This document shows positions 7,047 to 22,837 of a stretch of 32,000 nt of DNA, in pieces. Location: positions 4,056 to 36,055 of the forward strand of contig NZ_QNRH01000014.1 of assembly GCF_003314995.1 (NCBI RefSeq), in the 5' to 3' direction. A program made the translations under genes and the position numbers. Position 1 is the first letter of the stretch. Every line of letters starts with the position of its first letter. The notes beneath the pieces are model-generated. The model was not told the DNA's origin. It searched no databases and saw nothing but the letters and a program-made list of their open reading frames with translations. Source of the DNA: Pseudochrobactrum asaccharolyticum. GTDB lineage: Bacteria > Pseudomonadota > Alphaproteobacteria > Rhizobiales > Rhizobiaceae.

Positions 7047-7089
7047 AATATCATCAAAATTAGTAATGCATGAGAATGAGGCAATCCCA

Positions 7090-7896
7090 ATGGAAGTGAA
7101 CGCACAATTTAATGACCCGCGTCTGGAGAAACTCGATGGTTTCACCGTTACAATTAACAGTGAAAGTCAGCGTGCAAATATTACACTGAACCGTCCCCCA
7201 TATAATGTTGTCTCAATGGTTGAGCGGGATCAGCTGCGTCTTGTTTTTGAAGCCCTGGATGAAGACGAGAGCATCCGCATCATCGTTGTTTCCGGCGAGG
7301 GAGAACACTTTTCTTCTGGCGGACACATCAAGGGATTTTTGGAATCCAGCCCTGAACATGTCTCCAAACTTGCATGGAACATTGCAGCTCCTGCACGTTG
7401 TTCCAAGCCGGTTATTGCTGCAAACCGTGGTTATTGTTTCGGCGTTGGTTTTGAACTGTCACTGGCATGCGATTTCCGCATCGTGACAGAAACAACACGT
7501 TATGCACTGCCTGAGCAGAAACTTGGTCAGATCCCAGGTTCCGGTGGTTCGGCACGCTTGCAAAAAATGGTTGGCGTTACACGCACTAAAAATATCGTTA
7601 TGCGTTCAAAACGTATAACCGGCCAGCAGGCCTATGATTGGGGGATTGCCTCAGAAATCGTAAGCAATGACGATCTTGAGAAAGCGGTTGATGATCTCGT
7701 CGCTGAACTGCTCACATTCTCCCCATTGGCACAGCGCACAGCCAAGAAACTGCTCAATGATACAGATGATGCACTGTTGTCGACTGCAATTGAACTTGAA
7801 GGCCATTGCTACAGTCGTTTGCGTTCATCGGAAGACTTCAAGGAAGGCGTTACAGCGTTCCATGAAAAGCGTGAGCCAAAATTCACCGGAAAATAA
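7090..7896 (+). CDS. Enoyl-CoA hydratase/isomerase (crotonase) family protein; putative 2-oxoglutaroyl-CoA hydrolase (HmfE-like, 268 aa from ATG 7090)
   Basis: Crotonase core GYCFGVGFELSLACDFRI...LPEQKLGQIPGSGGSARL and C-terminal FKEGVTAFHEKREPKF. The ORF is open from 7018. ATG 7090 has a GAGG 8 nt upstream and does not overlap the ligase gene; 7066 and 7018 are alternative starts. Confidence 0.85.
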   Translation: MEVNAQFNDPRLEKLDGFTVTINSESQRANITLNRPPYNVVSMVERDQLRLVFEALDEDESIRIIVVSGEGEHFSSGGHIKGFLESSPEHVSKLAWNIAAPARCSKPVIAANRGYCFGVGFELSLACDFRIVTETTRYALPEQKLGQIPGSGGSARLQKMVGVTRTKNIVMRSKRITGQQAYDWGIASEIVSNDDLEKAVDDLVAELLTFSPLAQRTAKKLLNDTDDALLSTAIELEGHCYSRLRSSEDFKEGVTAFHEKREPKFTGK

Positions 7897-10785: not shown

Positions 10786-11700
10786 ATGGAGTTGCGTCAA
10801 TTAAATTATTTCATTGCAGCCTATGAGGAGGGGTCTATTACCCGCGCGGCTCAGCGTTTGAATATTGTGCAGCCTGCGATCAGCCAGCAGCTTGCAAAGC
10901 TGGAGGCCGAATTAGGCGGTGCACTGTTTCAGCGTACACCCACGGGGTTACGACCGACTTTTTTGGGAGATGATGCTTATCGATTGTTAAGGCCACTGGT
11001 GCATCAACTGCAATCAGCGCGTCATGACCTTTCAGCTGATCGATCTCGGATAGGCGGTGCGCTGGCGATCGGGGCTATTGCATCCATGGCAATGGAAATT
11101 CTTCCCGAGACCCTGATCGCTTTGGGGGCACAATATCCTGATGTTACTTTCAGGGTAACAGGCGGTTATTCAGCTGAAATGCTGGAGATGCTGCGCATTG
11201 GAAAAATTGATATTGCGATTATCAATCATACAGATAACCGGCGTACTGACTTTGTTGAAATTGAGTTGTTTAATGAGAGGCTGGCTTTCATCTGCGCGCC
11301 AGATCATCCAGTCGCCATGCAGAACGGTCGTATCCGCGCTTCTGATGTTAAGCGCCTTGTTTTGCCAACAACGCGCCATGGTTTGCGCGATGTCATTTCA
11401 ATAGCAGCACGTGCAGCCGCGTTAAATCTGGATCCGCAATTGGAATGCGATGAAATTGCGACCCTTGAAAAATTCGTAGAACATGGCGGCTATGTTACTA
11501 TTCTGCCGCCGATCGCTCTTTTGAGTGCCCTGACTGAGGGGCGACTTATTGCATTACCAATCGCCCCGGGTGTGCGTCGGCGCGTTGTTTGTGCTTACAG
11601 CAATAGCCGGCCGCTCAGCCGTGCCGCGGAAGTATTTATCAGAGGGTTGCGTCAGCGGCTGAATGATGTGCCGAAGGATCTCATCAGCGTGCATCCATAG
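10786..11700 (+). CDS. LysR-family transcriptional regulator (304 aa)
   Basis: N-terminal LysR HTH: MELRQLNYFIAAYEEGSITRAAQRLNIVQPAISQQLAKLEAELGGALFQR. It is divergent from the UbiD gene and upstream of UbiX. Confidence 0.92.
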   Translation: MELRQLNYFIAAYEEGSITRAAQRLNIVQPAISQQLAKLEAELGGALFQRTPTGLRPTFLGDDAYRLLRPLVHQLQSARHDLSADRSRIGGALAIGAIASMAMEILPETLIALGAQYPDVTFRVTGGYSAEMLEMLRIGKIDIAIINHTDNRRTDFVEIELFNERLAFICAPDHPVAMQNGRIRASDVKRLVLPTTRHGLRDVISIAARAAALNLDPQLECDEIATLEKFVEHGGYVTILPPIALLSALTEGRLIALPIAPGVRRRVVCAYSNSRPLSRAAEVFIRGLRQRLNDVPKDLISVHP

Positions 11701-11794: not shown

Positions 11795-12397
11795 ATGGTG
11801 GGTGCGCAAACGAATAGATTGATTGTAGGTATCTCGGGAGCCTCAGGTGCTATCTATGGCATAAGATTATTAGAGTTACTGCGTGAGAGCCCTATCGAAA
11901 CGCATCTGGTGATTTCTCGTGCTGCCGAAATAACGATTGCACTTGAGACGGGAAGAAAGCTTGCTGATGTTCGGGCATTGGCCGACCGCTACTATCGTTT
12001 TGAAGATGTCGCTGCTTCAATTTCTTCCGGCTCGTTTCTCACTATGGGGATGATTGTTGCACCATGCTCTGTACGCAGTCTCTCAGAGATTGCTACCGGA
12101 ACAACGTCATCGCTACTGACGAGAGCTGCGGATGTTGTGCTGAAGGAGCGTCGCAAACTCGTGCTTATGTTGCGTGAGACCCCACTTCATCTTGGCCATT
12201 TACGCAGTATGACCGCTGTGACTGAGATGGGGGCGATAATATCTCCGCCGGTGCCTGCATTTTATGCCAAGCCGCAAAGTCTCACTGAAATGGTGGATCA
12301 TAGTCTTGGACGCGTGTTGGATATGTTTGGGGTGGAGACAAACACTGTCCGGCGCTGGAGAGACAACCAGCCTCAAATCGCATCGCTCTCATGTTGA
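11795..12397 (+). CDS. UbiX-family flavin prenyltransferase, HmfG-like (200 aa from ATG 11795)
   Basis: RLIVGISGASGAIYGIRLLELL...ETHLVISRAA...MIVAPCSVRSLSEIATG...RRKLVLMLRETPL is the canonical UbiX/Pad1 pattern. The ORF is open from 11744, but the conserved domain starts just after M at 11795. Confidence 0.9.
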   Translation: MVGAQTNRLIVGISGASGAIYGIRLLELLRESPIETHLVISRAAEITIALETGRKLADVRALADRYYRFEDVAASISSGSFLTMGMIVAPCSVRSLSEIATGTTSSLLTRAADVVLKERRKLVLMLRETPLHLGHLRSMTAVTEMGAIISPPVPAFYAKPQSLTEMVDHSLGRVLDMFGVETNTVRRWRDNQPQIASLSC

Positions 12398-12609
12398 TTG
12401 CTCAAGCTGCGGAATTGTCATTTGAAATAAGAGTGAAGCCTTCATCATCAGGCTGGAATTGTAGGTGGTTCCTATTGAAATGATAGGGGCAAATCGGCTG
12501 TTTATCGGAGTAAGTTTTAGAAGAATAAGAGACATTCTGTAATTGCGGGAGGCAAAACAGAGTGAGGCGTATTCGCTTTAAGTCTTGTTGCTCGGGAGGG
12601 AGAAAATTT

Positions 12610-13605
12610 ATGAATAGAATGACACGCAGAACCATGCTCTGTGGAGGCGGTATCGCGGCTGCAGGTGCACTCACGGGTCTTTCATTGCCCGCTTTTGCTC
12701 AACAAAGCGAGGTGCGCTGGGCAGAGCTGAAGCCAGGTTTCACTGTTTTACTGACCGGCTTCATCAAGCATCATCGCTTGGATAAAAAGCACGGATTTTC
12801 ACTTTCTACAGCGACGGAATATACGTCCGTACCCACTTATTATAGTGATTTTGATGTCGGTAATTACGATATCTGTATTGGCAGCTGGGACACCTTTGCA
12901 ACGCGCTACGTTCGCGGCGTACCGTTGACATATATATGTAACGTGACCACCGCCAATATGATCAATTTCATATCACTTAAAGAGACCGGTGTGGATGATG
13001 TGTCGGTGCTGGCCGGAAAAGTTGTGGCTGCTCCTCAGTCAACCGGAACCTATCAGATGGCAAAAGCTGTTCTGGCTGAATTTAAAAAGATTGATCTTGA
13101 AGGCAGCTCGACAATCCAGAATGTGAATAATCCTGCAGCGTCGGTGTCTGTGTTGCGGGCGGGTAGTGCCAACGCCGGACTAACCTGGGAACCGAACGTT
13201 ACGAATGGAATGGCCGAAGATGGTCGTATTCAGAGTATCTTTAGTATTGGTGATGCCTACACCAAGGGTACAAACGGCAAAACTCTTCCCTATTTCGGCG
13301 TCGCGGTTCGCAATGAATTGCTAGCAACCGATCCACAGATCGGGGTCAAAATTGATGCGATGTTCCGTGACTGTATCGAGGGTATTCTGAGTGACGTGCC
13401 AAGTGCAGTGACTGTTGTCGGAGAAGCAACAGGCTTCCGGCCTGAAGTTCTGACTGAAGCGATCGCGTCGGGACGACTGGATTTCAAATATACTTCAATG
13501 ACCGATGCTGCTGCACGAGAAAATCTCAAAGCTGCTGCTGAATTCTGTGTTCGCAACGGTGCGCTTGCGGGTGTTCCGGATGACAACTTCTTCTTCCAGG
13601 GTTGA
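12610..13605 (+). CDS. ABC transporter periplasmic substrate-binding protein (NMT1/NitT-TauT-like) with a Tat-type signal peptide (331 aa)
   Basis: MNRMTRRTMLCGGGIAAAGALTGLSLPAFA|QQ carries a twin-arginine motif and an AxA cleavage site. GGGAGGGA lies upstream of ATG 12610. A cognate permease and ATPase follow. Confidence 0.8.
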   Translation: MNRMTRRTMLCGGGIAAAGALTGLSLPAFAQQSEVRWAELKPGFTVLLTGFIKHHRLDKKHGFSLSTATEYTSVPTYYSDFDVGNYDICIGSWDTFATRYVRGVPLTYICNVTTANMINFISLKETGVDDVSVLAGKVVAAPQSTGTYQMAKAVLAEFKKIDLEGSSTIQNVNNPAASVSVLRAGSANAGLTWEPNVTNGMAEDGRIQSIFSIGDAYTKGTNGKTLPYFGVAVRNELLATDPQIGVKIDAMFRDCIEGILSDVPSAVTVVGEATGFRPEVLTEAIASGRLDFKYTSMTDAAARENLKAAAEFCVRNGALAGVPDDNFFFQG

Positions 13606-13674: not shown

Positions 13675-14496
13675 GTGTCTCAAGCCCAAGTGCACCCGAG
13701 CCAGAATGAGCTCGAGGGTAATCCATTGCCTGTCGAGCGCAAGCTGACGCAAAGCAGCGTAATTCCTATCCTTGTCGTTGTGGCCGCGTTGACAGTTGCA
13801 ATCCAGATTGCCAGTTTTTACGTCCCCCCTTATGTAATGCCATCACCGGCCGTTATTCTTGCCGCTGTCAGCGAAATTCTAACCACCCAATATCATCATA
13901 TTGGTGTCACCGCTTTGCGCCTTCTTGTGGCGCTGCTTTTCGCGATGATGCTGGGGGTTCTCCTTGGTGTGATCATGGGGATCTTTCCGAAAATCCGCCC
14001 GTATTTGCACTCGCTGATCATTATCGACACTGGGATACCTGCACTGTCCTGGATGCTTTTGGCGATTTTTTGGTTTTCGCAACCAGAAGTCCGGATTTTC
14101 TTCATCTTGTCGGTTATTCTGGTGCCATTTTATGCATTGAGTATCTATGACGGCATTCGCGCTCTGTCGAACGACCTTGTCGATATGATCGAAAGCTTTC
14201 GTCCCAATCGCTGGCAGGTGCTGCGTTATCTGATCCTTCCGCATATTGTTCCCTATATCCTGTCCACCACGAAATCCGTGATCGGGTACGCGATCCGTAT
14301 GGCGATTTTTGCTGAACTGGTTGCTTCTGCGATGGGGATTGGCTCGCGGATGAGTCTTGCACAATCGATGTTCCGTATTGACCAGGTTCTTGGTTGGACT
14401 GTGATCCTCGTGGTGGCGAACATATCGCTGCAAGCACTGCTCAACAGAACAGATAAGGTTCTTCTAAAGTGGCGTCCGGAGGCTTCAGTAAGATGA
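13675..14496 (+). CDS. ABC transporter permease (NitT/TauT family type, 273 aa, GTG start)
   Basis: Multi-TM protein with a binding-protein-dependent permease core. GGAGGA lies 4 nt upstream of GTG 13675. Confidence 0.85.
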   Translation: MSQAQVHPSQNELEGNPLPVERKLTQSSVIPILVVVAALTVAIQIASFYVPPYVMPSPAVILAAVSEILTTQYHHIGVTALRLLVALLFAMMLGVLLGVIMGIFPKIRPYLHSLIIIDTGIPALSWMLLAIFWFSQPEVRIFFILSVILVPFYALSIYDGIRALSNDLVDMIESFRPNRWQVLRYLILPHIVPYILSTTKSVIGYAIRMAIFAELVASAMGIGSRMSLAQSMFRIDQVLGWTVILVVANISLQALLNRTDKVLLKWRPEASVR

Positions 14497-15245
14497 GCAA
14501 CCAATCCATTATCAGCCTTGAAAAAGTAGGGAAATCCTATGGATCTTATCAGGTTCTCAGCAATATCTCGATGAAGGTCAACCAAGGGGAAATCGTTGCG
14601 CTCCTTGGTCAGACGGGAGCTGGAAAAAGCACTGTTATGAATATGGTCATGGGCACACAACCGACCAGCGCAGGAACAGTGCGCGTTGCGGGATATGACC
14701 CTTTTCGTGATTTTGCGAAACTACGTGGAAAAATGGCCGTCAGTTTCCAGACCGACCGGCTCTTACCTTGGCGAACAGCTGTTGAGAACTGTGAGTTAGG
14801 CCTGCTTATCTTGAAAGTCCCGCCCGCAGAAGCCCGCAAACGTGCACTGACATGGTTGTCGCGCGTCAAACTGGAAGGGGCCGCAGATAAGCACCCGCAC
14901 GAACTCTCAGGCGGTATGCGCCAACGTGTTTCTCTCGCACGGGCTTTGTGTGTCGACCCTCAGCTTGTGTTGTTGGATGAGAGCTTCAGTCAGCTCGACC
15001 ACGTTACCTCAAAAGAGCTGCGTCAGGATTTCGCACGTGTTGTGCGGGAGTACAACAAGACCTGTCTTTTCGTAACCCATCGTATTGATGATGCAATCGA
15101 AATGGCCGATCGCGTGATCGTGCTACGCCCAAATGTTGGCGTTGCGCTTGAAGAAAACATCAGTGCCGAAGTCTGTAAAACCCCAGAACTTGCTCAGGCA
15201 TTACATGATCGGATCGCCGCCTGTATGGCGGGGGAAACTCAATAA
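14493..15245 (+). CDS. ABC transporter ATP-binding protein (250 aa)
   Basis: Walker A GQTGAGKST, signature LSGGMRQRVSLARAL, Walker B LVLLDESFSQLD. ATG 14493 overlaps the permease stop (ATGA). Confidence 0.9.
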   Translation: MSNQSIISLEKVGKSYGSYQVLSNISMKVNQGEIVALLGQTGAGKSTVMNMVMGTQPTSAGTVRVAGYDPFRDFAKLRGKMAVSFQTDRLLPWRTAVENCELGLLILKVPPAEARKRALTWLSRVKLEGAADKHPHELSGGMRQRVSLARALCVDPQLVLLDESFSQLDHVTSKELRQDFARVVREYNKTCLFVTHRIDDAIEMADRVIVLRPNVGVALEENISAEVCKTPELAQALHDRIAACMAGETQ

Positions 15246-15288: not shown

Positions 15289-16083
15289 ATGAGTTATCAG
15301 GATATTATCGTTGAGCGGCAGGAAAACTGGATCGAAATCCAGATTAATCGACCTGAAAAGTTGAACTCACTACGTGAAACGACCGCGTCCGAAATTATGG
15401 AGGCAATGGCTGCGGCAGAACATGATCGCGATATACGAGCCGTTATTCTCAAAGGGACCGAAAAAGCCTTTTGCACAGGTATCGATACGTCGGAATTTAC
15501 AATTGGTGACAACGAGTATTTCGATTTTTATCGAATGCGTCGGCGTAGCCGGAAAGTCAATCGCCTGTTCAGAGAGATGCCAGAATATACCAAGCCGGTG
15601 ATCACTGTGATTGAAGGCTTCGCTTTGGGTGGCGGTCTGGAGCTGGCGCTTGTCGGTGACATTATTATCGCAGGTGAAAAAGCCAAGCTTGGGCTTCCTG
15701 AAATCCGCCTTGGCCTGATGCCCGGCGGTGGCGGTACTCAGACACTACCGCGTTTGATCGGTAAATCATTGGCCAAGGAACTTATGTGGACAGGTCGCCG
15801 CCTGTCGGCACAGGAAGCCAAGGAAATCCGCCTTCTCAATCACGTAACCGCCGCAGGCGAAGCCTTAGATAAGGCGCGTGAGATTGCACGCACGATTGCG
15901 GGTAATGCTCCGTTGTCGGTCATGCTCACCAAAGGGGTGATTGATCGCGGGATTGATATGTCACTTGCTGATGGTTTTGCAGCCGAGGGTGATGCGTCCT
16001 TCATGCTCTATTTTACGGGTGACCGTCAGGAAGGGCTGTCTGCTTTCCGTGAAAAGCGTGAACCTCAGTTCAAGGGAGAGTGA
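15289..16083 (+). CDS. Enoyl-CoA hydratase (crotonase family, 264 aa)
   Basis: Both catalytic Glu positions appear present (GFALGGGLELALVGD and LGLPEIRLGLMPGGGGTQ). C-terminal QEGLSAFREKREPQFKG. GGGAG lies 7 nt upstream of ATG 15289. Confidence 0.88.
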   Translation: MSYQDIIVERQENWIEIQINRPEKLNSLRETTASEIMEAMAAAEHDRDIRAVILKGTEKAFCTGIDTSEFTIGDNEYFDFYRMRRRSRKVNRLFREMPEYTKPVITVIEGFALGGGLELALVGDIIIAGEKAKLGLPEIRLGLMPGGGGTQTLPRLIGKSLAKELMWTGRRLSAQEAKEIRLLNHVTAAGEALDKAREIARTIAGNAPLSVMLTKGVIDRGIDMSLADGFAAEGDASFMLYFTGDRQEGLSAFREKREPQFKGE

Positions 16084-16089
16084 TTAATT

Positions 16090-17256
16090 ATGTCAAAATC
16101 AGATATCGTCATCGCGGCCTATTCGGAAACGCCTGTGCAATTCAAGTCTGGCCGCAGTGCTTATGATCTTGCAGGAGAAGCTTTCGCCCAGTTGCTTGAG
16201 CGTTCCGGCATTGCCAAGTCTGAAATTGATGGATTGTCCGTGACTGTTCCATTGAGTGAATGCAGCAATCCGTTTTTCGCGGTTTACATGAGCGAAGCAC
16301 TGGGGATCTCACCAACCTGGATGAATTATGGTGGTACCGGCGGCTGCTCTGCCACCGGTGGTGTTGCCCGCGCAATGTCTGCAATCCGTGACGGTCATTG
16401 TGAAGTTGCAATGGTTATGTCGGCGGATGCTCCTTCAACACGGTGGGCAGCCAATTACGGGGCTTATCGTGGCGAGTTTCAAGATCCGCAAGGCGTGCAG
16501 GGGCCACCGGCTGTATTCGGCCTTTTGATGAGCCGCTATGCTTATCAATATGACCTTAAACCTGAAGCTTTGGCAAAGATTGCAATCACGCAGCGCAATC
16601 ATGCATTGCTGAATGAAAATGGACTTGAAAAGTTTCGTAAACCTCTGAGCGAAGAGGATTATTTCGCTTCGAAAGTTATTGCTGACCCGTTGCGCGTGCT
16701 GGATTCGGTGATGTTCTGTGATGGTGCCAACGCCTTTCTTGTTATGAAACGTGAGAAGGCTGATGCGCTTGGGATCAAAACGTATGTCTATCCGACCGCC
16801 TATGCGGAACTGACCAATGTCAACGGATCGGATCCGCTGGCGGATGTAACCGAAACCGGATTTTCAAAAATCGCACCAAAAATCTGGCAGCAATCCGGGT
16901 TAAAACCGTCGGACATCTCGATGTTTCAACCCTATGACGATTTTACCATCGCCGTATTGATGAAGTTCGAGGATTTCGGGTTCTGTGGCCGGGGTGAAGG
17001 CAGTGATTTTGTCCTGTCTACTGATCTTAGCTTCAAGGGCTCTTTGCCGCTCAATACTGGTGGCGGACAGATTTCAGCGGGCCAACCCGGATTGGCAAGT
17101 GGTGGATTGAACCTTGCCGAGGCTGTTCGGCAACTTATGGGCGAGGGCGGTGAGCGTCAGGTCGCCAATCCTAAAAATGCACTTGTCACAGGTATTGGTG
17201 TTATCCCGTTCGCTCGTAACTGGGGTACCAGTGCTGCTATGATTTTGGAGGTCTGA
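16090..17256 (+). CDS. Thiolase-like (SCP-x / Ltp-type) protein, probably not a canonical thiolase (388 aa)
   Basis: It has thiolase-fold signatures (GGTGGCSATGGVARAMSAIRDG; LNTGGGQISAGQPGLASG). The His of the conserved GHP motif is Gln, and the C-terminal HN.G/C.G region is absent. A DUF35 gene follows 1 nt later. Confidence 0.8.
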   Translation: MSKSDIVIAAYSETPVQFKSGRSAYDLAGEAFAQLLERSGIAKSEIDGLSVTVPLSECSNPFFAVYMSEALGISPTWMNYGGTGGCSATGGVARAMSAIRDGHCEVAMVMSADAPSTRWAANYGAYRGEFQDPQGVQGPPAVFGLLMSRYAYQYDLKPEALAKIAITQRNHALLNENGLEKFRKPLSEEDYFASKVIADPLRVLDSVMFCDGANAFLVMKREKADALGIKTYVYPTAYAELTNVNGSDPLADVTETGFSKIAPKIWQQSGLKPSDISMFQPYDDFTIAVLMKFEDFGFCGRGEGSDFVLSTDLSFKGSLPLNTGGGQISAGQPGLASGGLNLAEAVRQLMGEGGERQVANPKNALVTGIGVIPFARNWGTSAAMILEV

Positions 17257-17257
17257 T

Positions 17258-17674
17258 ATGTCCGAACTCGCTAATTTACGTCCAATCCCAAAACCGAATA
17301 CCTTTGTTAATACCGATGCTTTTTGGGACGGAGCGCGCCGTAAGGAACTGTGGCTGCAATATTGCCTCGATACCGGCAAGTTCCAGCACTATCCGCGTCC
17401 AGTATCGATCTACACGGGTTCCCGAAACCTGGAATGGCGTCAAGTGTCCGGAAAGGGCGTTGTCTATGCCGCCACGGTCATCCGTATTCCCGGCGTCGGC
17501 CTTGAAGGCCGTACACCACTTAATACCTGCACCATCGATCTTGATGAGGGGGCGCGGCTTTTGGGCAATATCACCAATGCTGAGCCCGGTGCAGTTGCTA
17601 TTGGTGCGCGGGTAGAGCTGGATTGGGAAAAGCTCGCCGATGACATCTATTATCCGGCCTTTCGGTTGGTATAA
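17258..17674 (+). CDS. DUF35/OB-fold protein (thiolase-like partner subunit) with a degenerate Zn ribbon (138 aa)
   Basis: FWDGARRKELWLQYCLDTGKFQHYPRPVSIYTGSRNLEWRQVSGKGVVYAATVI matches the DUF35 pattern. Three of the four ribbon cysteines are replaced by Thr, Ser and Thr. Confidence 0.8.
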   Translation: MSELANLRPIPKPNTFVNTDAFWDGARRKELWLQYCLDTGKFQHYPRPVSIYTGSRNLEWRQVSGKGVVYAATVIRIPGVGLEGRTPLNTCTIDLDEGARLLGNITNAEPGAVAIGARVELDWEKLADDIYYPAFRLV

Positions 17675-17689
17675 CTTGGAGAGTTTGCC

Positions 17690-19249
17690 GTGCGTCTTGA
17701 AAATATTTTGTTCTCCCATTCTCTGAGCCAACCAGAGAAAACTGCACTTATCTGCGGAGAAAATCGGCTCAACTGGGGTGATTTGGGTAACCGGGTCCGT
17801 TCTGTTGCGCGGGGCTTGGCGGCGCGCGGCATTGGCAGTGGTGACAAGGTTATTCTCTATATGTCAAACCAGATCGAGTTCGCCGAAGCGTTTTTCGGCG
17901 TTCTCGCAACTGGAGCGGTGGTGGTTCCTGCCACAACACGTATCAGTCCCCATGAACTTGCCTATTTTCAAGCAGATAGTGGCGCAGGATTGATCATTTG
18001 TGATGCAAATCTTGCAGAAAAAGTCGCCGCTGAAGTTTCTGTGGGTGCAGAAATTTACACTGTAGGAGAGACAATCTCAGACTTTGCTGATTTTTCATGT
18101 TTGCGCCAATCTGGCACTACCCCCTTGCCACCAATTCCGCTTGAACAGGACGAAGCGGCTATTCTCTACACCTCAGGTACAACCGGTCAGCCTAAGGGTG
18201 TGGTGTTAACCCATGCGAATATCCTCGTCTGTCATGGCTATATGAATGCTGTTGAATGGGGGATTAACGGCGACGATATCTATCTCGTTGTTTCCCCCAT
18301 GGCACATCGTGCCGGAATGGGGCGGATGATCAATGCACTGATGCTTGGTGGTACGCTGAATATCCTTAGCCGCTTTGATCCGGACGATGTGCTCTCCATC
18401 ATTGAAAGGGAACAGGTGACTGTACTGGGTCTCGTTCCAACAATGTGCCGGATGATGATGCCGGTTCTGGAGGCAGATCCGCAACGCGCTGCCTCATTAC
18501 GCCGACTGGCTGTGACGGGGGAAGCTTTTCCGGTGCCGTTGAAAGAACGGCTGATTGCCTTGCTGCCAAATCTCGAAATCGTTTCTTTCTTTGGCATGAC
18601 CGAAGCAGGTGGTGTGACGGGGCTGATGCATCGTGAACAATTCACACATGCCGGCTCGGTGGGACGACCTTGCCCCGGAGTGGAAGTCAGGATCACAGAC
18701 GAGGATGGCCGTGACGTTATGGATGGTGAGGCGGGAGAGCTTTTAGTTCGCGCCGGACGTCCCGGGGCTTTCACGGTGATGAAGGGATATCTGAATAACC
18801 CTGAGCAGACTGAAGCTGCATTTAGCGATGGATGGTTCCGTACCGGCGATATGGCACGCCGCGATGCTGATGGGTATCTCTATATTGTTGATCGTAAGAA
18901 AGACATGATCGTATCAGGCGGGCTCAATATCTATTCGAAAGAAGTCGAACAGACGATCACCGAACTGCCCGGTATCGCTGATGTCGCGGTCATCGCTGTC
19001 CCTGATGATGTTTTTGGTGAGAGTGTTGTGGCGGTGATTGAACCTGAAAAGGGGGCAGTTGCCCCGGATAAAAATCAGATCGTCGAACATTGCCGGCAGC
19101 GCATTGCCGGTTACAAGAAGCCCAAATATGTCCTTTACCGAAGCGAACTGCCACGCAACGCTACGGGCAAAATTCTTAAGCGTGACCTTCTGCCATGGGC
19201 GGTTGCGGAAATCACTGCGACAACGGATCAGGCGAAGGTGGCATCATGA
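17690..19249 (+). CDS. AMP-dependent acyl-CoA synthetase (519 aa, GTG start)
   Basis: ILYTSGTTGQPKGVVLTH, WFRTGDMARRDADGYLYIVDRKKDMI and GKILKRDL. GGAGAG lies upstream of GTG 17690. Confidence 0.9.
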   Translation: MRLENILFSHSLSQPEKTALICGENRLNWGDLGNRVRSVARGLAARGIGSGDKVILYMSNQIEFAEAFFGVLATGAVVVPATTRISPHELAYFQADSGAGLIICDANLAEKVAAEVSVGAEIYTVGETISDFADFSCLRQSGTTPLPPIPLEQDEAAILYTSGTTGQPKGVVLTHANILVCHGYMNAVEWGINGDDIYLVVSPMAHRAGMGRMINALMLGGTLNILSRFDPDDVLSIIEREQVTVLGLVPTMCRMMMPVLEADPQRAASLRRLAVTGEAFPVPLKERLIALLPNLEIVSFFGMTEAGGVTGLMHREQFTHAGSVGRPCPGVEVRITDEDGRDVMDGEAGELLVRAGRPGAFTVMKGYLNNPEQTEAAFSDGWFRTGDMARRDADGYLYIVDRKKDMIVSGGLNIYSKEVEQTITELPGIADVAVIAVPDDVFGESVVAVIEPEKGAVAPDKNQIVEHCRQRIAGYKKPKYVLYRSELPRNATGKILKRDLLPWAVAEITATTDQAKVAS

Positions 19250-20397
19250 TCCGGCCAGAAACAGCAGTAGAAGCGGAGTTCCGTGCGGAGCTTCGCGGGT
19301 GGCTGGCAAAAGAGGTGCCGGCACATCTTGCCCACACGACGTTCAGGCCTGAACCTGCTGAAGCGACAGCATGGCATCGCAAATTGGCGCAAATGGGTTG
19401 GATCGCTCCGCATTGGCCTAAGGAATATGGCGGGATGGGAGCAAGTCCTGTTGAGCAGGTCATTCTCATGGAAGAACTTGCCCGTGCAGGTGCGCCGGAT
19501 TTGCCGACACAGGGACTGAACCATATTGGTCCTCTCCTGATGAAATCAGGAACCCATGCGCAGAAAGAGCAGCATCTGCCGAGGATTCTTTCGGGCGATA
19601 CGGTATGGTGTCAGGGCTATTCCGAACCTGAAGCCGGCTCGGATCTGGCCAGCTTGCAGACCAAGGCAAGGATTGAGGGATCGGAGCTGGTCATAGACGG
19701 ACACAAAATCTGGACAACATGGGGACATCACGCGGACTGGATGTTTGCCTTGGTTCGGACTTCGCCGGAGCGACGCGATGGGATTACTTTCGTGCTCTTT
19801 CCGATGAACACACCGGGTATCACTGTTAAACCAATCAAAACCATCGCAGGTGATGAAGAGTTTGCTGAGGTTTTTTTTGATGCTGTACGGGTGCCTATAG
19901 AAAATGTTGTCGGTTCAATTGGTGGTGGCTGGAAAGTTGCGACTTCGCTTCTTGATGAGGAGCGGATGCATCTGGGCACACCGGCGCTTACTAATCGGGC
20001 CCTGGTCCGGTTACAGCGATTAGTACAGAATATGCCTGCGGTATCGCGCGATGAATGGCAAATTCGCCTTGAACAAGCGCGGGCAAAGGTTGAAGTCGTG
20101 ACAGCCGCATTCCTCGATACGGCTGAGCGTTTTGAGACCGGTGTGGCGGTCGTCAACGAGTCAAGTTATCTCAAAATTCTGAACACAGAGACTGTGCAGG
20201 GGATATTAGAATTGGTGTTTGAGGCTGCCGGAGCACTTGGCGCGCGACAGGGCTCGTTAATCGAAAGTGGTATGCGGATCGATCTGAATGAAATGTATCT
20301 GCAGTCGCGCCGTTTAACTATCTATGGCGGTTCCAATGAGATTCAGAGATCTATTTTAGCCAACCGTGTGCTGGGTTTGAACGGAGGGCGCACCTGA
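19246..20397 (+). CDS. Acyl-CoA dehydrogenase, probable catalytic alpha subunit of a heteromeric pair (383 aa)
   Basis: ACAD motifs WCQGYSEPEAGSDLASLQTKA, DGHKIWTTW and C-terminal IYGGSNEIQRSILANRVLGL. ATG 19246 overlaps the ligase stop (ATGA). The ORF is open from 19195, but that stretch overlaps the ligase coding region. Confidence 0.88.
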   Translation: MIRPETAVEAEFRAELRGWLAKEVPAHLAHTTFRPEPAEATAWHRKLAQMGWIAPHWPKEYGGMGASPVEQVILMEELARAGAPDLPTQGLNHIGPLLMKSGTHAQKEQHLPRILSGDTVWCQGYSEPEAGSDLASLQTKARIEGSELVIDGHKIWTTWGHHADWMFALVRTSPERRDGITFVLFPMNTPGITVKPIKTIAGDEEFAEVFFDAVRVPIENVVGSIGGGWKVATSLLDEERMHLGTPALTNRALVRLQRLVQNMPAVSRDEWQIRLEQARAKVEVVTAAFLDTAERFETGVAVVNESSYLKILNTETVQGILELVFEAAGALGARQGSLIESGMRIDLNEMYLQSRRLTIYGGSNEIQRSILANRVLGLNGGRT

Positions 20398-21395
20398 TGC
20401 CGGTATGGTCACAAGAGGATCGTCTGATTGCTGATAGCGCGGATGCGTTGTTTGCAGATACCGGCGGCCTGACCGGCCTGCGGTTGGGGAATGGGCGGAC
20501 ATTGGCACGCATTCGTGCTGAGGGCTGGGCGGGTGTCCTGCTCGATGAAGAACAAGGGGGGCTGGGTTTCGGACTGCGTGGCGCAGCGATTGTTATGCAG
20601 TCGGCAGGCCGTAATCTATCACCAGAACCACTCGCTGCTATGATAGCAGTCGCATGGCTGCTTGGCACGATAGGTGAAGGCACACTTGTGTCTGAGTTGA
20701 TGTCAGGGCAGCAGATAATTTTGTCAGCGCACGCTCAATGGGATGGTGAACGCTATGTCACGGGGGCGATACCGGGAATAGCCGTTGCCGATCATCTGGT
20801 TGTATTCTGCTCTGATGACCAATCACTGCGCCTGATCAATTGTAAAAATGCCAAAGATCCTGAGGTTGACATTGATATATTTTCAACTGTTGATTTTGGA
20901 AGTTCGGGCGCGGCGTCCTTTGCAAAGGGTGCGGGAACGATTTTGTGCGTTGGTAAGATAGCAACGGAACTGGCTGAGAAAATTGAAGATCTGGTTCGGC
21001 TGTTCCATGCTGCTGAACTGGTTGGCATCGCAGCACAGGCGCTAACAATCGTGTCAGACTATGTCAAAATACGGCAGCAATTCGGTGTCTCCTTATCCAG
21101 CCATCAGGTTATCCAGCACCGTCTTGCATCAGTGCATGTACAAATTGCAGCTGCAGAGGCGATTGTCTATGAGGCAGTGCGTGCGGTTGATGGGGAGCAA
21201 CGCCGGTTTGGGGTAAAGACTGCCTATCAGCAAGCCCGTCACGCTGCAGAGTTGTCAACCCGCGAAGCTATCCAATTTCATGGTGGAATTGGTTTTACCG
21301 ATGAATGCGATATCGGGCTGTTTTTCAAACGCGTGATGGGGATTGCTGCAGCTCAAAATGGATGCTTGCCGGTGATTGAGGAGCGAGTAGCATGA
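20397..21395 (+). CDS. Acyl-CoA dehydrogenase-like protein, shorter beta-type subunit (332 aa)
   Basis: ACAD-like N-terminus (AEGWAGVLLDEEQGGLGFG) and IQFHGGIGFTDECDIGLFFKRV. The protein ends before the C-terminal catalytic-base region. It is joined to the upstream ACAD by a TGATG overlap. Confidence 0.8.
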   Translation: MPVWSQEDRLIADSADALFADTGGLTGLRLGNGRTLARIRAEGWAGVLLDEEQGGLGFGLRGAAIVMQSAGRNLSPEPLAAMIAVAWLLGTIGEGTLVSELMSGQQIILSAHAQWDGERYVTGAIPGIAVADHLVVFCSDDQSLRLINCKNAKDPEVDIDIFSTVDFGSSGAASFAKGAGTILCVGKIATELAEKIEDLVRLFHAAELVGIAAQALTIVSDYVKIRQQFGVSLSSHQVIQHRLASVHVQIAAAEAIVYEAVRAVDGEQRRFGVKTAYQQARHAAELSTREAIQFHGGIGFTDECDIGLFFKRVMGIAAAQNGCLPVIEERVA

Positions 21396-22837
21396 CTTTA
21401 ATGACTGAAAAATATGGCCCTTTAACACTCTTTATCGATGGCGAATGGATCTCCGTCTCGGATAGTGGCGAAGATGTGTATAATCCTGCAACCGGGGAGG
21501 TCATTGCCAGATTACCTCATGCGAGTGCTTCCGATATCGACCGCGCAGCACAGGCCGCTGCCCGTAGTTTTCCGGCATGGCGCGCTCTGACTGCACTTGA
21601 GCGCAGTCGCATTTTGCGACGTACTGCCGATCTCTTACGTGAGCGTGCTGATCATATCGCCTGGCTGCTTAGTACCGAGCAGGGGAAAGCTCTGGGGGAG
21701 GCGCGGATAGAAGTTATGGTTTCGGCCGAAACACTGGATTGGTGTGCAGAAGAGGGGCGCCGTATCTACGGGCGGATCGTTCCCAGCCCGTATCCACAGG
21801 TGGAATATCGTGTGCTCAAGCAACCGGTCGGGCCTGTTGCTGCTTTTACCCCGTGGAATTTTCCGTTGATGATGCCTGCACGCAAAGTGGCCTCAGCGCT
21901 TGCATCCGGTTGCACGATCGTTCTTAAACCTGCGGAAGAAACCCCCGCTGCGGCAATTGAACTTGCGCGTGCTTTTCATGATGCGGGGCTACCTGACGGT
22001 GTCTTGAACATCGTTTTTGGTAATCCTGCCGAAGTATCGGAACAACTCATTGCTCATGAGGCTATCCGGAAAGTTACATTTACTGGTTCCACCGCTGTCG
22101 GTCAGCATCTTGCTGGTCTGGCCGCGCGCCACGGAGCCAAGCGCTGTACTATGGAGCTTGGCGGTCATGCGCCGGTACTGATCCTTGAGGATGCAGATCT
22201 TGAGCGGGCAATTTCGTTATTGGCACCGTTCAAATTCCGCAATGCCGGACAGGTTTGTATTTCACCAACACGATTTTACGTACATGACAGTCTGCATGAT
22301 CGTTTTGTTGATGGCATGGTTTGTGCCGCTACTAAACTGAAGATCGGATCAGGTGTTGAAGAGGGCGTGCAGATGGGCCCGCTGGCCAATCCGCGCCGGG
22401 TTTCAGCCATGCGTGAACTGGTCGATGATGCAATTGCGCAGGGCGCGCGCTGTATGACCGGCGGTAATCTTGTTGGTAATCGGGGCAATTTTTTTGCGCC
22501 TACTGTATTGGCCGATGTGCCTGAAAGCGCCCGTATTATGAATGAGGAGCCTTTTGGCCCCATCGTCGTCACCGCCCGTATCCATAATACGCAAGAAGCA
22601 ATTACACAGGCAAACCGGCTTCCGTTTGGATTGGCCTCTTATGCCTTTACCAGTTCGGCGCATAATATCAGTATGCTGGCTGATGGGGTTGAAGCGGGCA
22701 TGCTTGGCGTGAACGCAATCGCAGTATCAACACCGGAAGCACCATTTGGTGGTGTGCGCCACAGTGGTTATGGGAGCGAGGGTGGCATTGAGGGCATGGA
22801 GCCTTATTTGGTTACCAAACTGCTTGCACAAGGATGA
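21392..22837 (+). CDS. NAD(P)+-dependent aldehyde dehydrogenase (481 aa; GabD / semialdehyde-dehydrogenase-like)
   Basis: YNPATGEVIA, catalytic-Glu motif MELGGHAP, catalytic-Cys motif FRNAGQVCISPTRFYV, and EEPFGPI. ATGA overlap with the upstream gene. Confidence 0.92.
   Translation: MTLMTEKYGPLTLFIDGEWISVSDSGEDVYNPATGEVIARLPHASASDIDRAAQAAARSFPAWRALTALERSRILRRTADLLRERADHIAWLLSTEQGKALGEARIEVMVSAETLDWCAEEGRRIYGRIVPSPYPQVEYRVLKQPVGPVAAFTPWNFPLMMPARKVASALASGCTIVLKPAEETPAAAIELARAFHDAGLPDGVLNIVFGNPAEVSEQLIAHEAIRKVTFTGSTAVGQHLAGLAARHGAKRCTMELGGHAPVLILEDADLERAISLLAPFKFRNAGQVCISPTRFYVHDSLHDRFVDGMVCAATKLKIGSGVEEGVQMGPLANPRRVSAMRELVDDAIAQGARCMTGGNLVGNRGNFFAPTVLADVPESARIMNEEPFGPIVVTARIHNTQEAITQANRLPFGLASYAFTSSAHNISMLADGVEAGMLGVNAIAVSTPEAPFGGVRHSGYGSEGGIEGMEPYLVTKLLAQG

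What the first reader, a model, noticed from the sequence alone, without database searches (positions are those of the whole stretch)
15289..22837. Seven-gene operon resembling aldolytic acyl side-chain cleavage, physically attached to a furoyl-CoA-type pathway
Seen:
- Seven tightly packed genes: crotonase hydratase, thiolase-like protein, DUF35 protein, acyl-CoA synthetase, ACAD alpha, ACAD beta and aldehyde dehydrogenase.
- The last four share ATGA/TGATG overlaps; the other junctions are gaps of 1, 6 and 15 nt.
- The set is preceded by a dedicated ABC importer.

Established:
- In bile-acid and steroid degraders, side chains are shortened by CoA activation, a heteromeric ACAD, hydration, and then retro-aldol cleavage by a thiolase-like aldolase associated with DUF35.
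- The systems I recall are Pseudomonas Chol1 Stc/Scd/Shy/Sal/Sad and actinobacterial ChsE/ChsH/Ltp2.
- In Chol1 the resulting aldehyde is oxidised by a dedicated ALDH.

Inference:
- This operon is a compact, crotonase-based version of that logic. It would convert a (hetero)aryl-propionate or -acrylate into an aryl aldehyde and then an aryl carboxylate.
- That product would feed the adjacent UbiD/UbiX and HmfABCDE-like enzymes.
- I know of no described furan or heteroaromatic pathway with this architecture.
- The substrate is unknown. Candidates include furanpropionates, furan-fatty-acid breakdown products, furylacrylate and the thiophene or pyrrole equivalents.
Basis: partly seen in the sequence, partly recalled or inferred. 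Interest (0 to 1): 0.82.

Follow-up and report, generated by a model that had tools for sequence, protein, structure and literature searches.

The report
Side-chain-clipping module beside furan genes
Next to the genes that burn furan acids, this soil bacterium carries a conserved, undescribed gene set that most likely clips a two-carbon unit off a furan-bearing acid using a steroid-type aldolase, which would be the first non-steroid example and a new entry route into furan breakdown.

Summary
Seven tightly packed genes lie at 15289-22837: crotonase hydratase, thiolase-like protein, DUF35 protein, CoA ligase, two acyl-CoA dehydrogenase subunits and an aldehyde dehydrogenase. An ABC importer precedes them, and hmfABCDE and hmfFG homologues sit upstream. 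The window is Pseudochrobactrum asaccharolyticum.

- The thiolase-like/DUF35 pair is closest to the two solved steroid aldolase complexes, CtSal-Shy(DUF35) and TcLtp2-ChsH2(DUF35).
- It keeps their catalytic Tyr (YDDF) and the two Gln of CtSal, and lacks every thiolase catalytic residue.
- The ACAD alpha subunit is closest to steroid alpha2beta2 ACADs. No 3-hydroxyacyl-CoA dehydrogenase is present.
- In 80 related loci from Alpha-, Beta- and Gammaproteobacteria, 41 carry hmfA-E and/or an HmfF-type decarboxylase within 10 kb.

Corrections:
- The conserved core is LysR + ABC + hydratase + thiolase-like + DUF35 + ligase.
- The ACADs (38/80) and the ALDH (orthologous in 4/80; another type recruited elsewhere) are accessory.
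- The enzyme belongs to neither the Sal nor the Ltp2 clade: about 30% identity, Asp in place of the Sal catalytic Cys, and a zinc-less DUF35.

A 54%-identical paralogue lies beside tfdA on pJP4. Substrate and chemistry are untested. I found no description of this module in the searchable literature.

The parts
12562..13605 (+). ABC importer substrate-binding protein (NMT1/TauA-like; gene callers start at 12610)
   Evidence: Pfam NMT1. No PDB relative. Orthologue present with the module in most loci.
13675..14496 (+). ABC importer permease
   Evidence: BPD_transp_1. TauC/SaoP-like in NCBIfam, below cut-off. Present in 58/80 loci at >=50% identity.
14493..15245 (+). ABC importer ATPase
   Evidence: ABC_tran. 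Start as called in L002. 43-nt gap to the hydratase gene.
15289..16083 (+). Crotonase-type enoyl-CoA hydratase
   Evidence: ECH_1, E=6e-60. Both catalytic Glu present (GGGLE118LA, LPE138). Orthologue in 54/80 loci.
16090..17256 (+). Thiolase-fold protein, predicted retro-aldolase (YDDF type)
   Evidence: Best PDB hits 9myr_A (CtSal), 4u4e, 6ok1_A (TcLtp2). Y282-D-D-F285 and Q327/Q332 match CtSal Y302/Q347/Q352. GQP replaces GHP. Gly85 is at the nucleophile register.
17258..17674 (+). Stand-alone DUF35 (OB-fold) partner protein with degenerate zinc ribbon
   Evidence: OB_ChsH2_C, and zf-ChsH2 only weakly. Best PDB hits 9myr_B and 6ok1_B. Only 1 of 4 Zn ligands retained across the family. Next to the thiolase-like gene in 78/80 loci.
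17690..19249 (+). AMP-forming acyl-CoA synthetase of the module
   Evidence: AMP-binding. 29% identical to HmfD, so not a duplicate. Present in 65/80 loci. Replaced by an ADP-forming acyl-CoA synthetase in the Xanthobacter type.
19246..20397 (+). ACAD alpha subunit (accessory to the core)
   Evidence: Three ACAD domains. Best PDB hits are steroid alpha2beta2 ACADs 6wy9/6wy8 and 4x28, at 190 bits against 118 for the next. Present in 38/80 loci.
20397..21395 (+). ACAD beta subunit (divergent, accessory)
   Evidence: Only the C-terminal ACAD domain is recognised. Weak match to Tcur3481, the partner in 6wy8. Always follows ACADa.
21392..22837 (+). Aldehyde dehydrogenase of the KGSADH/SSADH group (accessory)
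   Evidence: Aldedh, E=2e-157. Best PDB hits 9zh8, 5x5t (alpha-ketoglutaric semialdehyde DH) and SSADHs. Orthologous copies only in L005-L007 and L045.
1261..7896 (+). hmfABCDE homologues: furoyl-CoA dehydrogenase large subunit fused to CoxG, FAD and 2Fe-2S subunits, furoate-CoA ligase, crotonase-type hydrolase
   Evidence: Pfam. 51-78% identity to hmfA-E genes next to the module in other loci, including BisB18. BisB18 is a confirmed furfural degrader (PMC3223595).
7948..9189 (+). BenE-family transporter
   Evidence: BenE. A 65%-identical BenE flanks the module in two of three Alcanivorax/Alloalcanivorax loci (L043, L049).
9293..10681 (-). HmfF-type UbiD decarboxylase (2,5-furandicarboxylate decarboxylase homologue)
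   Evidence: 414 bits to 6h6v/6h6x. Homologues of 53-79% identity lie within 10 kb of the module in 26/80 loci.
10786..11700 (+). LysR regulator divergent from hmfF
   Evidence: HTH_1 + LysR_substrate.
11795..12397 (+). UbiX flavin prenyltransferase (HmfG homologue)
   Evidence: Flavoprotein. NCBIfam UbiX above cut-off.

Best explanation
The region encodes a CoA-dependent, non-thiolytic module that shortens an acid side chain by two carbons and feeds the neighbouring furan-acid pathway.

Proposed steps:
1. The ABC system imports a carboxylic acid.
2. The ligase makes its CoA thioester.
3. The heteromeric ACAD introduces the 2,3 double bond. This step is needed only for saturated side chains, which would explain why the ACADs are optional.
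4. The crotonase adds water to give a 3-hydroxyacyl-CoA.
5. The thiolase-fold protein, bound to its DUF35 partner, splits this by retro-aldol cleavage into acetyl-CoA and an aldehyde. Tyr282 would act as base on the hydroxyl, and Asp284 would do the job of the Sal catalytic Cys.
6. The ALDH oxidises the aldehyde to the acid.

Here the product is most likely a furan carboxylate: 2-furoate, or 2,5-furandicarboxylate if the substrate carries a second carboxylate. HmfFG would then decarboxylate it and HmfD/HmfABC/HmfE would convert it to 2-oxoglutarate.

Shown: gene content, homology, residue patterns and conserved linkage. Inferred: every reaction, the complex, the aldehyde intermediate and the furanic substrate.
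For: Fold and partner:
- Both proteins of the pair hit the solved aldolase complexes 9myr and 6ok1 best.

Active site:
- Y282 equals CtSal Y302 and Ltp2 Y294, the catalytic base in both. Q327/Q332 equal CtSal Q347/Q352.
- The thiolase His of GHP is Gln, the His of HD(C/A)F is Tyr, and the acid/base Cys is Asp.
- These residues are invariant in 14 orthologues and in relatives down to 32% identity.

Operon logic:
- The hydratase has both catalytic Glu.
- No SDR or HADH lies in the window, and none is conserved in 80 loci.
- ALDHs of two unrelated types were recruited into the module. One sits at the end here. The other sits between ACS and ACADa in Variovorax/Cupriavidus loci that have no hmf genes nearby.
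- The AMP-forming ligase is displaced by an ADP-forming one in the Xanthobacter type.
- ACADa is closest to steroid side-chain ACADs.

Link to furans:
- hmfA-E and/or an HmfF-type UbiD lie within 10 kb in 41/80 loci, and in 29/53 loci with full flanks, across three proteobacterial classes.
- The same linkage occurs on a Bosea plasmid.
- The flanks are otherwise unrelated between loci.

Weak hints of a second carboxylate on the substrate:
- PimC-like ACADa.
- KGSADH/SSADH-type ALDH.
Against: - No enzyme was assayed.
- The essential catalytic Cys304 of CtSal is Asp here. In CtSal the Ala, Ser and His replacements were inactive; Asp was not tested.
- Ltp2 Tyr344 has no counterpart.
- An invariant Cys86 lies next to the nucleophile position. 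One HMMER alignment places it opposite the thiolase Cys.
- ALDH is absent from most loci, and ACADs from half.
- Minimal arrangements without hydratase or ACAD exist: thiolase-like-DUF35-ACS-UbiD in marine Rhodospirillaceae, and tfdA-ACS-thiolase-like-DUF35 on pJP4. The pair may therefore act on a substrate that needs no hydration.
- 39/80 loci show no hmf gene within 10 kb.
- No natural furan-propionate or furan-acrylate catabolism is documented in the library searched.
Confidence: 0.5

Rival explanations
1. The module is a side-chain or chain-shortening system for a non-furanic acid, such as an aliphatic dicarboxylate of the pimelate/adipate type or another aryl- or aryloxy-alkanoate. Its position next to hmf genes would then reflect co-mobilisation in catabolic islands, or a shared end product such as 2-oxoglutarate from 2,5-dioxopentanoate, rather than a furan substrate.
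For: - ACADa's best NCBIfam match is pimeloyl-CoA dehydrogenase large subunit, and the hydratase matches PaaF-type 2,3-dehydroadipyl-CoA hydratase, both below cut-off.
- The ALDH is closest to alpha-ketoglutaric semialdehyde and succinate semialdehyde dehydrogenases.
- 39/80 loci have no hmf or UbiD gene within 10 kb.
- A 54% paralogue sits in a 2,4-D plasmid, not a furan context.
- The window island is a mosaic.
Against: - Linkage to hmfA-E or to an HmfF-type decarboxylase recurs in 41/80 loci in different gene orders and in three classes. Hitch-hiking would not give this.
- The UbiD partners are specifically HmfF-like, 53-79% identical to a protein scoring 414 bits to HmfF.
- The KGSADH-like ALDH is present in only 4 loci.
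Confidence: 0.2
2. The thiolase-fold/DUF35 pair carries out a different C-C or acyl-transfer reaction directly on the CoA ester made by the ligase. Candidates are hydrolytic retro-Claisen cleavage of a 3-ketoacyl-CoA or a Friedel-Crafts-type acyl transfer as in PhlABC. The hydratase, ACADs and ALDH would be peripheral.
For: - Minimal units of ligase + thiolase-like + DUF35 exist without hydratase or ACAD, next to UbiD (marine type) or tfdA (pJP4).
- The Asp284/Tyr282 pair and the invariant Cys86 are not the residues of any characterised aldolase.
- The DUF35 family also partners real thiolases and the PhlABC acylase.
Against: - The hydratase is adjacent in 54/80 loci and ALDHs were recruited twice.
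- Similarity is highest to the aldolases.
- Cys86 is Ala, Gly or Val in the wider YDD clade, so it is not a conserved nucleophile.
Confidence: 0.12
3. The module is ordinary beta-oxidation. The thiolase-like protein would thiolyse a 3-ketoacyl-CoA made by a dehydrogenase encoded elsewhere, yielding furoyl-CoA directly. For the pJP4 paralogue, it would be the beta-ketoadipyl-CoA thiolase that has been predicted in print.
For: - Annotated as thiolase or acetyl-CoA acetyltransferase by all sources.
- A published prediction exists for the pJP4 homologue (PMC6449761).
- BbsAB shows that DUF35 can partner a true thiolase.
- Cys86 lies at or next to the nucleophile site.
Against: - The GHP His is Gln, the HD(C/A)F His is Tyr and the acid/base Cys is Asp. 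All are invariant.
- In the ungapped register to the conserved helix Gly, Gly85 takes the nucleophile position, as does Gly89 of CtSal.
- No conserved 3-hydroxyacyl-CoA dehydrogenase is present.
Confidence: 0.06

Closest known systems
Proteobacterial bile-acid C5 side-chain system StdA1 / Scd1AB / Shy1 / Sal1 / Sad (Pseudomonas Chol1, Comamonas testosteroni; CtSal-CtShy(DUF35) structure 9myr)
   Same: - Same order of chemistry: CoA ligase, heteromeric ACAD, hydratase, thiolase-fold aldolase bound to DUF35, then a dedicated ALDH (PMC8399759).
- The best PDB hit of both the thiolase-like and the DUF35 protein.
- Shares the catalytic Tyr, both Gln and the Gly at the nucleophile site.
   Different: - About 32% identity, a separate clade.
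- The essential Cys304 is Asp.
- The hydratase is a crotonase, not a MaoC hot-dog protein.
- DUF35 is a free-standing protein without the C3H1 zinc site.
- An ABC importer is attached.
- The neighbours are furan genes, not steroid genes.
Actinobacterial cholesterol C3 side-chain system ChsE1-ChsE2 / ChsH1-ChsH2 / Ltp2 (TcLtp2-ChsH2(DUF35), 6ok1)
   Same: - Thiolase-fold aldolase plus DUF35.
- The YDxF Tyr base is conserved.
- The alpha2beta2 ACAD relatives (4x28, 6wy8/9) are the best hits of ACADa.
   Different: - Ltp2's catalytic acid Tyr344 has no counterpart, and His296 is Asp.
- The C4 zinc ribbon is lost.
- MaoC hydratase there, crotonase here.
- The Ltp2 substrate has a tertiary alcohol that forces aldol cleavage; here that is unknown.
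CoA-dependent non-beta-oxidative hydroxycinnamate pathway (Fcs/Ech(HCHL)/Vdh; Acinetobacter hcaABCD with the HcaD ACAD). From my own knowledge, not tested here.
   Same: The same overall logic for an aryl-acrylate or aryl-propionate: ligase, optional ACAD, hydration, retro-aldol release of acetyl-CoA and an aryl aldehyde, then an ALDH feeding a ring pathway.
   Different: There a single crotonase (HCHL) both hydrates and cleaves. Here the crotonase has the ordinary two-Glu hydratase site, and a separate thiolase-fold/DUF35 pair is present.
tfdA-linked acyl-CoA synthetase / thiolase-like / COG1545 trio on pJP4 and related IncP 2,4-D plasmids
   Same: - The closest sequence relative outside the family: 54% identity, with an identical GGC / YDDF / GGGQxSAGQPG signature.
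- Its DUF35 is also zinc-less.
- It too is attached to a ring-degradation pathway.
   Different: - The ligase is only 31% identical.
- No ABC(Tau-type), ACADs or ALDH in the operon.
- Uncharacterised. It has been predicted in print to be a beta-ketoadipyl-CoA synthetase/thiolase pair (PMC6449761), which its residues do not support.
Benzoylsuccinyl-CoA thiolase BbsAB and the archaeal thiolase/HMGCS/DUF35 complex
   Same: SCP2-type thiolase fold with a DUF35 partner.
   Different: Those keep the Cys nucleophile, HDAF and GHP and perform Claisen chemistry. The window protein has none of these.

Membership tests
Sal-type steroid aldolase (CtSal) | SCP2-thiolase-like fold with highest similarity to Sal | tested here: met
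   Thiolase_C_1. 9myr_A is the best PDB hit at 168 bits. Identity is only about 32%, similar to its distance from Ltp2 and 4u4e.
Sal-type steroid aldolase (CtSal) | Catalytic base Tyr302 in the YDCY motif | tested here: met
   Y282 in YDDF, invariant.
Sal-type steroid aldolase (CtSal) | Catalytic acid Cys304 (essential; A/S/H variants inactive) | tested here: not met
   Asp284, invariant in the family and in the wider YDD clade.
Sal-type steroid aldolase (CtSal) | Gln347 and Gln352 flanking the active site | tested here: met
   Q327 and Q332 in GGGQISAGQPG.
Sal-type steroid aldolase (CtSal) | No nucleophilic Cys (Gly at that position) | tested here: inconclusive
   The ungapped register, taken 17 residues before the conserved helix Gly, puts Gly85 there and Cys86 at +1, as in CtSal G89-A90-S91. 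Position 86 is A, G or V in the wider clade. The HMMER alignment to thiolase 7yvy instead pairs Cys86 with the nucleophile by using a gap. The structural model was too poor to decide.
Sal-type steroid aldolase (CtSal) | Partner DUF35 domain fused to a MaoC hydratase, with a C3H1 zinc finger | tested here: not met
   Free-standing 138-aa DUF35. One of four ligand positions is kept. The hydratase is a crotonase.
Sal-type steroid aldolase (CtSal) | Physical complex of aldolase and DUF35; retro-aldol activity on a 3-hydroxyacyl-CoA | not testable with these tools
   Only adjacency could be shown: a 1-nt gap here, and 78/80 loci.
Ltp2-type steroid aldolase (TcLtp2) | Tyr294 (YDHF) base and Tyr344 acid | tested here: not met
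   The Tyr294 equivalent is present. There is no Tyr at or near the Tyr344 position; the aligned residue is Leu after a 3-residue indel.
Thiolase (SCP2-type, BbsB-type, archaeal) | Cys nucleophile, His of GHP, His and acid/base Cys of HDCF or CxG | tested here: not met
   GQP for GHP and YDDF for HD(C/A)F. There is no C-terminal CxG Cys (TGIGV). The nucleophile position is probably Gly85.
Heteromeric alpha2beta2 acyl-CoA dehydrogenase (ChsE4-ChsE5 / Scd1AB type) | Two adjacent ACAD genes, one complete and one degenerate, related to known alpha and beta subunits | tested here: met
   TGATG overlap. ACADa scores 190 bits to 6wy9/4x28. ACADb has only the C-terminal domain and is weakly related to Tcur3481. 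The two are always paired in the loci. Heterotetramer formation is not testable.
hmf furoate / FDCA pathway | hmfABCDE order plus an HmfF/HmfG decarboxylase pair, homologous to characterised enzymes | tested here: met
   Domain order. HmfF at 414 bits. UbiX is above its NCBIfam cut-off. 55-75% identity to the BisB18 cluster, a confirmed furfural degrader. There is no hmfH or psfG homologue in the window.
HCHL-type hydratase/lyase (Ech of the ferulate pathway) | Crotonase in which the first catalytic Glu is replaced, and which cleaves as well as hydrates | tested here: not met
   Both Glu are present (E118, E138). The best NCBIfam matches are plain enoyl-CoA hydratases. The HCHL residue pattern is recalled from memory.

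The most novel reading that the evidence does not exclude
The YDDF-type thiolase-fold/DUF35 pairs may be a widespread, unrecognised family of non-steroid acyl-CoA aldolases that trim (hetero)aryl-alkanoate side chains.

The furan-linked members would carry out the last round of bacterial furan fatty acid catabolism. The common furan fatty acids have odd-numbered chains on both sides of the ring. Chain shortening from both ends would therefore end at furan-propionates and then at 2,5-furandicarboxylate.

This would give the FDCA decarboxylase HmfFG and the furoyl-CoA pathway a natural substrate other than heat-derived HMF. It would also explain the module's presence in lipid specialists such as Alcanivorax and in marine Rhodospirillaceae.
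Probability: 0.15. Interest if true: 0.85.

Novelty: new variant of a known kind. Interest (0 to 1): 0.62.

Why it matters
- Thiolase-fold aldolases working with DUF35 are so far known only from steroid side-chain degradation. A conserved clade with a different catalytic residue and a zinc-less partner, tied to furan catabolism, would extend that chemistry to small heteroaromatic acids.
- The clade matched in 166 stretches of a 185,579-species genome scan (170 stretches hit the search pattern). A sister clade lies on the classic plasmid pJP4.
- It would add an upstream branch to the furfural/HMF pathway. Surveys of hmf clusters have drawn these genes as unrelated or noted only the transporter.
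- It would correct a published thiolase prediction for the pJP4 genes.
- It would offer new aldolases for making or cleaving furan aldehydes, which are of interest for FDCA-based polymers.

Tried and rejected
- **NCBIfam on all seven proteins and on the hmf/ABC proteins.** Nothing reached a curated cut-off except UbiD/UbiX, so no functional name can be borrowed.
- **Promoter/terminator scan of 10600-23800.** Fewer promoter-like sites than shuffles and no convincing terminator, so operon limits stay open.
- **Search for an operator shared between hmf and module intergenic regions.** Only chance k-mers turned up. A CCTAT-N7-ATAGG dyad upstream of the SBP gene was not followed up.
- **AlphaFold of the thiolase-like protein with 14 close homologues.** Mean pLDDT was 55.6 and the active-site segments were below 50. 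I did not use it and ran no fold search.
- **SBP against solved structures.** No hit, so no clue to the ligand.
- **A conserved 3-hydroxyacyl-CoA dehydrogenase among unassigned neighbours.** I found only a heterogeneous SDR group in 21 loci, mostly several kb away.
- **Literature searches.** I tried hmfABCDE + thiolase, DUF35 + furan terms, furyl-acrylate/propionate terms, and furan fatty acid + hmf. None described this module.
- **PDB entry 9zh8** (the best ALDH hit) could not be traced to a paper.
- **Hypotheses considered and dropped:**
  - Hydration of FDCA-CoA to 2,5-dioxoadipyl-CoA gives no beta-hydroxy or beta-keto group for a thiolase-fold enzyme.
  - DMSP or sulfonate catabolism was suggested only by the Tau-type ABC family.
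  - A steroid substrate has no steroid genes nearby to support it.

Full report
**Source and layout**

The thiolase-like protein is 100% identical to a Pseudochrobactrum asaccharolyticum protein. The same arrangement is found on several independent assemblies of that species.

The first 22.8 kb of the window has about 50% G+C and reads as follows:
- AraC regulator
- hmfA (fused to a CoxG domain), hmfB, hmfC, hmfD, hmfE
- benE
- hmfF (UbiD, minus strand)
- LysR regulator
- hmfG (UbiX)
- a Tau/NMT1-type ABC importer
- the seven genes of the finding

At about 23.0 kb G+C jumps to 0.65. Unrelated genes follow: a truncated SLAC1/TehA, Crp, MacB/HlyD efflux, a TetR fragment, LysR and the chromate transporter ChrA.

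**Observation**

The ACAD alpha gene is best started at 19246, which gives the ATGA overlap with the ligase gene; gene callers use the same start. The ABC genes are contiguous with the set, with a 43-nt gap. Consensus scans gave no usable promoter or terminator. 'Seven-gene operon' is therefore a convenient label, not a demonstrated transcript.

**What the proteins are**

No NCBIfam model reaches its cut-off for any of the seven, so none is a named equivalog.

Thiolase-like protein:
- Its best solved relatives are 9myr_A, 4u4e and 6ok1_A. True thiolases (7yvy, BbsB 7pxp, SCP2-thiolases) score lower.
- 9myr matches the CtSal-CtShy(DUF35) complex of Rolfe et al. 2025: chain positions minus 24 reproduce the paper's Tyr302 and Gly89.
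- 6ok1 is TcLtp2-ChsH2(DUF35).

DUF35 protein: its two best hits are the partner chains of those same two entries.

Residue comparison:

| Window residue | Counterpart |
|---|---|
| Y282 in YDDF | Catalytic base of both aldolases (Y302 / Y294) |
| Q327, Q332 | CtSal Q347, Q352 |
| Asp284 | Essential CtSal Cys304; Ltp2 His296 |
| none | Ltp2 Tyr344 |
| GQP | Thiolase GHP |
| YDDF | Thiolase HD(C/A)F |
| no Cys | C-terminal catalytic Cys |

The invariant Cys86 needs care. HMMER aligns it with the nucleophilic Cys of thiolase 7yvy, but only by opening a gap. In thiolases, CtSal, Ltp2 and 4u4e, the nucleophile position lies 17 residues before a conserved Gly at the end of the following helix. That register puts Gly85 at the nucleophile site and Cys86 at the 'x' of C-x-S. 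This matches CtSal G89-A90-S91 and the paper's statement that a Gly replaces the nucleophile. In more distant relatives that keep YDD and GQ, this position is Ala, Gly or Val. I conclude that a thiolase mechanism is very unlikely. The exact role of Cys86 stays open, because my structural model was too poor to use.

Other proteins:
- The hydratase has both catalytic glutamates of ordinary crotonases.
- ACADa scores 190 bits to the alpha subunits of the steroid alpha2beta2 ACADs (6wy8/6wy9, 4x28), against 118 bits for the next hit.
- ACADb retains only a recognisable C-terminal domain and weakly matches the partner subunit Tcur3481.
- The ALDH is closest to 9zh8, to alpha-ketoglutaric semialdehyde dehydrogenase (5x5t) and to succinate semialdehyde dehydrogenases.
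- The DUF35 protein has lost three of the four zinc ligands, and so have all orthologues examined.

**Comparative genomics**

The thiolase-like protein belongs to a very tight family, at least 70% identical across Alpha-, Beta- and Gammaproteobacteria. At the 50% clustering level it is isolated: the best full-length relative outside it is 50% identical and the next are near 40%.

A scan of one genome per species found 170 stretches matching the search pattern, 166 of them confirmed as relatives. I examined the best 80 with up to 10-kb flanks on each side where the contig allowed (53 of them had full flanks), using the window proteins as queries.

| Gene next to the thiolase-like gene | Loci out of 80 |
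|---|---|
| DUF35 | 78 |
| Ligase | 65 |
| ABC permease | 58 |
| Hydratase | 54 |
| ACAD alpha | 38 |
| Any ALDH | 26 |
| ALDH orthologous to the window's | 4 |

Further points from the survey:
- Clustering the unassigned ORFs revealed a dedicated LysR regulator in 55 loci, usually divergent from the SBP gene.
- Beyond the module the flanks are unrelated between loci, so it behaves as a discrete cassette.
- In the Xanthobacter type the AMP-forming ligase is replaced by an ADP-forming acyl-CoA synthetase. This supports CoA activation as a required step.
- No 3-hydroxyacyl-CoA dehydrogenase is conserved.
- A different ALDH type sits inside the module (ACS-ALDH-ACADa) in Variovorax and Cupriavidus loci that have no hmf genes nearby. 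Two independent recruitments of an ALDH argue for an aldehyde intermediate.

**Link to furan genes**

hmfA-E genes lie within 10 kb in 19 loci, an HmfF-type UbiD in 26, and either in 41 of 80. Among the 53 loci with full flanks, 29 have one or the other. The arrangements differ:
- hmfABCDE-(ALDH)-LysR-ABC-module in Bradyrhizobiaceae, including R. palustris BisB18. BisB18 is a confirmed furfural degrader (PMC3223595).
- Module-UbiD in Alcanivorax, in two of three loci together with a benE.
- A thiolase-like-DUF35-(ligase)-UbiD core in marine Rhodospirillaceae. There it is followed by a ThDP enzyme, an SDR, a flavin monooxygenase, a CMD protein and a BVMO-like protein.
- A plasmid-borne version in Bosea with UbiD, UbiX and an ALDH.

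The window UbiD scores 414 bits to the structurally characterised FDCA decarboxylase HmfF, against 218 bits for the next family. A survey of hmf clusters noted Tau-type ABC transporters near hmf genes but not this module (PMC8091172).

**A sister clade**

On pJP4 and related IncP 2,4-D plasmids, tfdA is followed by an acyl-CoA synthetase, a thiolase-like protein and a zinc-less DUF35. The thiolase-like protein is 54% identical to the window's and has the same GGC/YDDF/GQP signature.

These genes were predicted in print to be a beta-ketoadipyl-CoA synthetase/thiolase pair (PMC6449761). The missing thiolase residues do not support that. The context is compatible with a feeder role for longer aryloxyalkanoates, but this is my inference. 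Equally, it shows that the pair can occur with a ligase alone.

**Mechanism proposed**

Import, CoA activation, optional desaturation by the heteromeric ACAD, hydration by the crotonase, retro-aldol cleavage by the thiolase-fold/DUF35 pair to acetyl-CoA plus an aldehyde, and oxidation by the ALDH.

In this window the product would be 2-furoate, or 2,5-furandicarboxylate if the substrate bears a second carboxylate. It would be consumed by HmfFG and HmfD/ABC/E. Three weak hints favour a dicarboxylate: a PimC-like ACADa, an ALDH of the semialdehyde-acid group, and the attachment to an FDCA decarboxylase.

All reaction steps are inferred.

**Comparison with known systems**

It works like the Chol1/Comamonas bile-acid C5 system (StdA1, Scd1AB, Shy1, Sal1, Sad; PMC8399759), and like the Fcs/HCHL/Vdh route for hydroxycinnamates (the latter from my own knowledge). 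It is not a member of the Sal or Ltp2 clades:
- Identity is about 30% to each, about the same as those two share with each other.
- One defining catalytic residue of each is missing.
- The DUF35 zinc site is gone.
- The hydratase is of another superfamily.

**Novelty and limits**

Within the searchable library I found no description of this module, nor of any non-steroid aldolase of this fold next to furan genes. Subscription-only literature was not covered. I rate it a new variant of a known kind.

The main uncertainties are the substrate, whether the aldehyde is really formed, and the meaning of the minimal ligase-only arrangements.

**Window-specific point**

Nucleotide synteny with the closest relative (L005, Ruixingdingia sedimenti) ends exactly at the ALDH stop codon at 22837. 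The module's own LysR, which follows the ALDH in L005-L007, is absent here. Regulation in this strain may therefore depend on the hmf LysR or on read-through.

Noticed in passing
window 22838-32000: G+C jumps from about 0.50 to about 0.65 just after the ALDH stop. The high-GC block carries a truncated SLAC1/TehA-like ORF (159 aa against a 331-position profile), Crp, a MacB/HlyD efflux system, a TetR C-terminal fragment, a LysR and a ChrA chromate transporter. It looks like a junction between DNA of two origins. It is present in several independent assemblies, so it is not an assembly chimera.
   Followed up: partly
window 22837/22838; L005 16726-17625: The dedicated LysR regulator found with the module in 55 of 80 related loci is missing from this window. 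In the closest relatives L005-L007 it sits right after the ALDH. Synteny with L005 ends exactly at the ALDH stop codon.
   Followed up: yes
L085 (pJP4, NZ_AY365053.1 37821-40971): tfdA is followed by an acyl-CoA synthetase, a thiolase-like protein 54% identical to the window's with the same YDDF/GQP signature, and a zinc-less DUF35. The same is seen on other IncP 2,4-D plasmids. The published prediction of a beta-ketoadipyl-CoA thiolase does not fit the residues.
   Followed up: partly
L055, L080 and similar marine Rhodospirillaceae MAG loci (e.g. L080 5484-21100); in L069 the ligase is missing: A variant cluster reads thiolase-like, DUF35, ligase, HmfF-like UbiD, ThDP enzyme, SDR, FAD monooxygenase, CMD protein and BVMO-like protein. 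A molybdopterin oxidoreductase plus a 4Fe-4S/membrane subunit lie divergently upstream. There is no hydratase or ACAD. Its function is unexplained.
   Followed up: partly
window 1261-4230: The furoyl-CoA dehydrogenase large subunit homologue carries a C-terminal CoxG/SRPBCC domain (989 aa). The R. palustris BisB18 homologue has the same fusion (997 aa).
   Followed up: no
alignment A2 (proteins P0148-P0170): Many uncharacterised thiolase-like proteins at 32-50% identity share YDD(F/Y) and GQ motifs and lack thiolase residues. A few have the Sal-like YDC instead. This suggests a large unstudied aldolase-like clade.
   Followed up: partly
L076 3029-5200 and six similar loci: In the Xanthobacter-type module the AMP-forming ligase is replaced by a 723-aa ADP-forming acyl-CoA synthetase (CoA_binding_2 + Succ_CoA_lig + ATP-grasp_5), and the hydratase is a divergent one placed upstream of the SBP gene.
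   Followed up: yes
window 12471-12487: A dyad CCTAT-N7-ATAGG lies in the 164-nt spacer between ubiX and the SBP gene. It may be a leftover operator of the missing regulator.
   Followed up: no
window 1-32000: The island has hmfFG but no hmfH (GMC oxidase) or psfG (SDR) homologue. The usual route from HMF acid to FDCA is therefore not encoded here, which leaves the source of FDCA for HmfFG open.
   Followed up: partly
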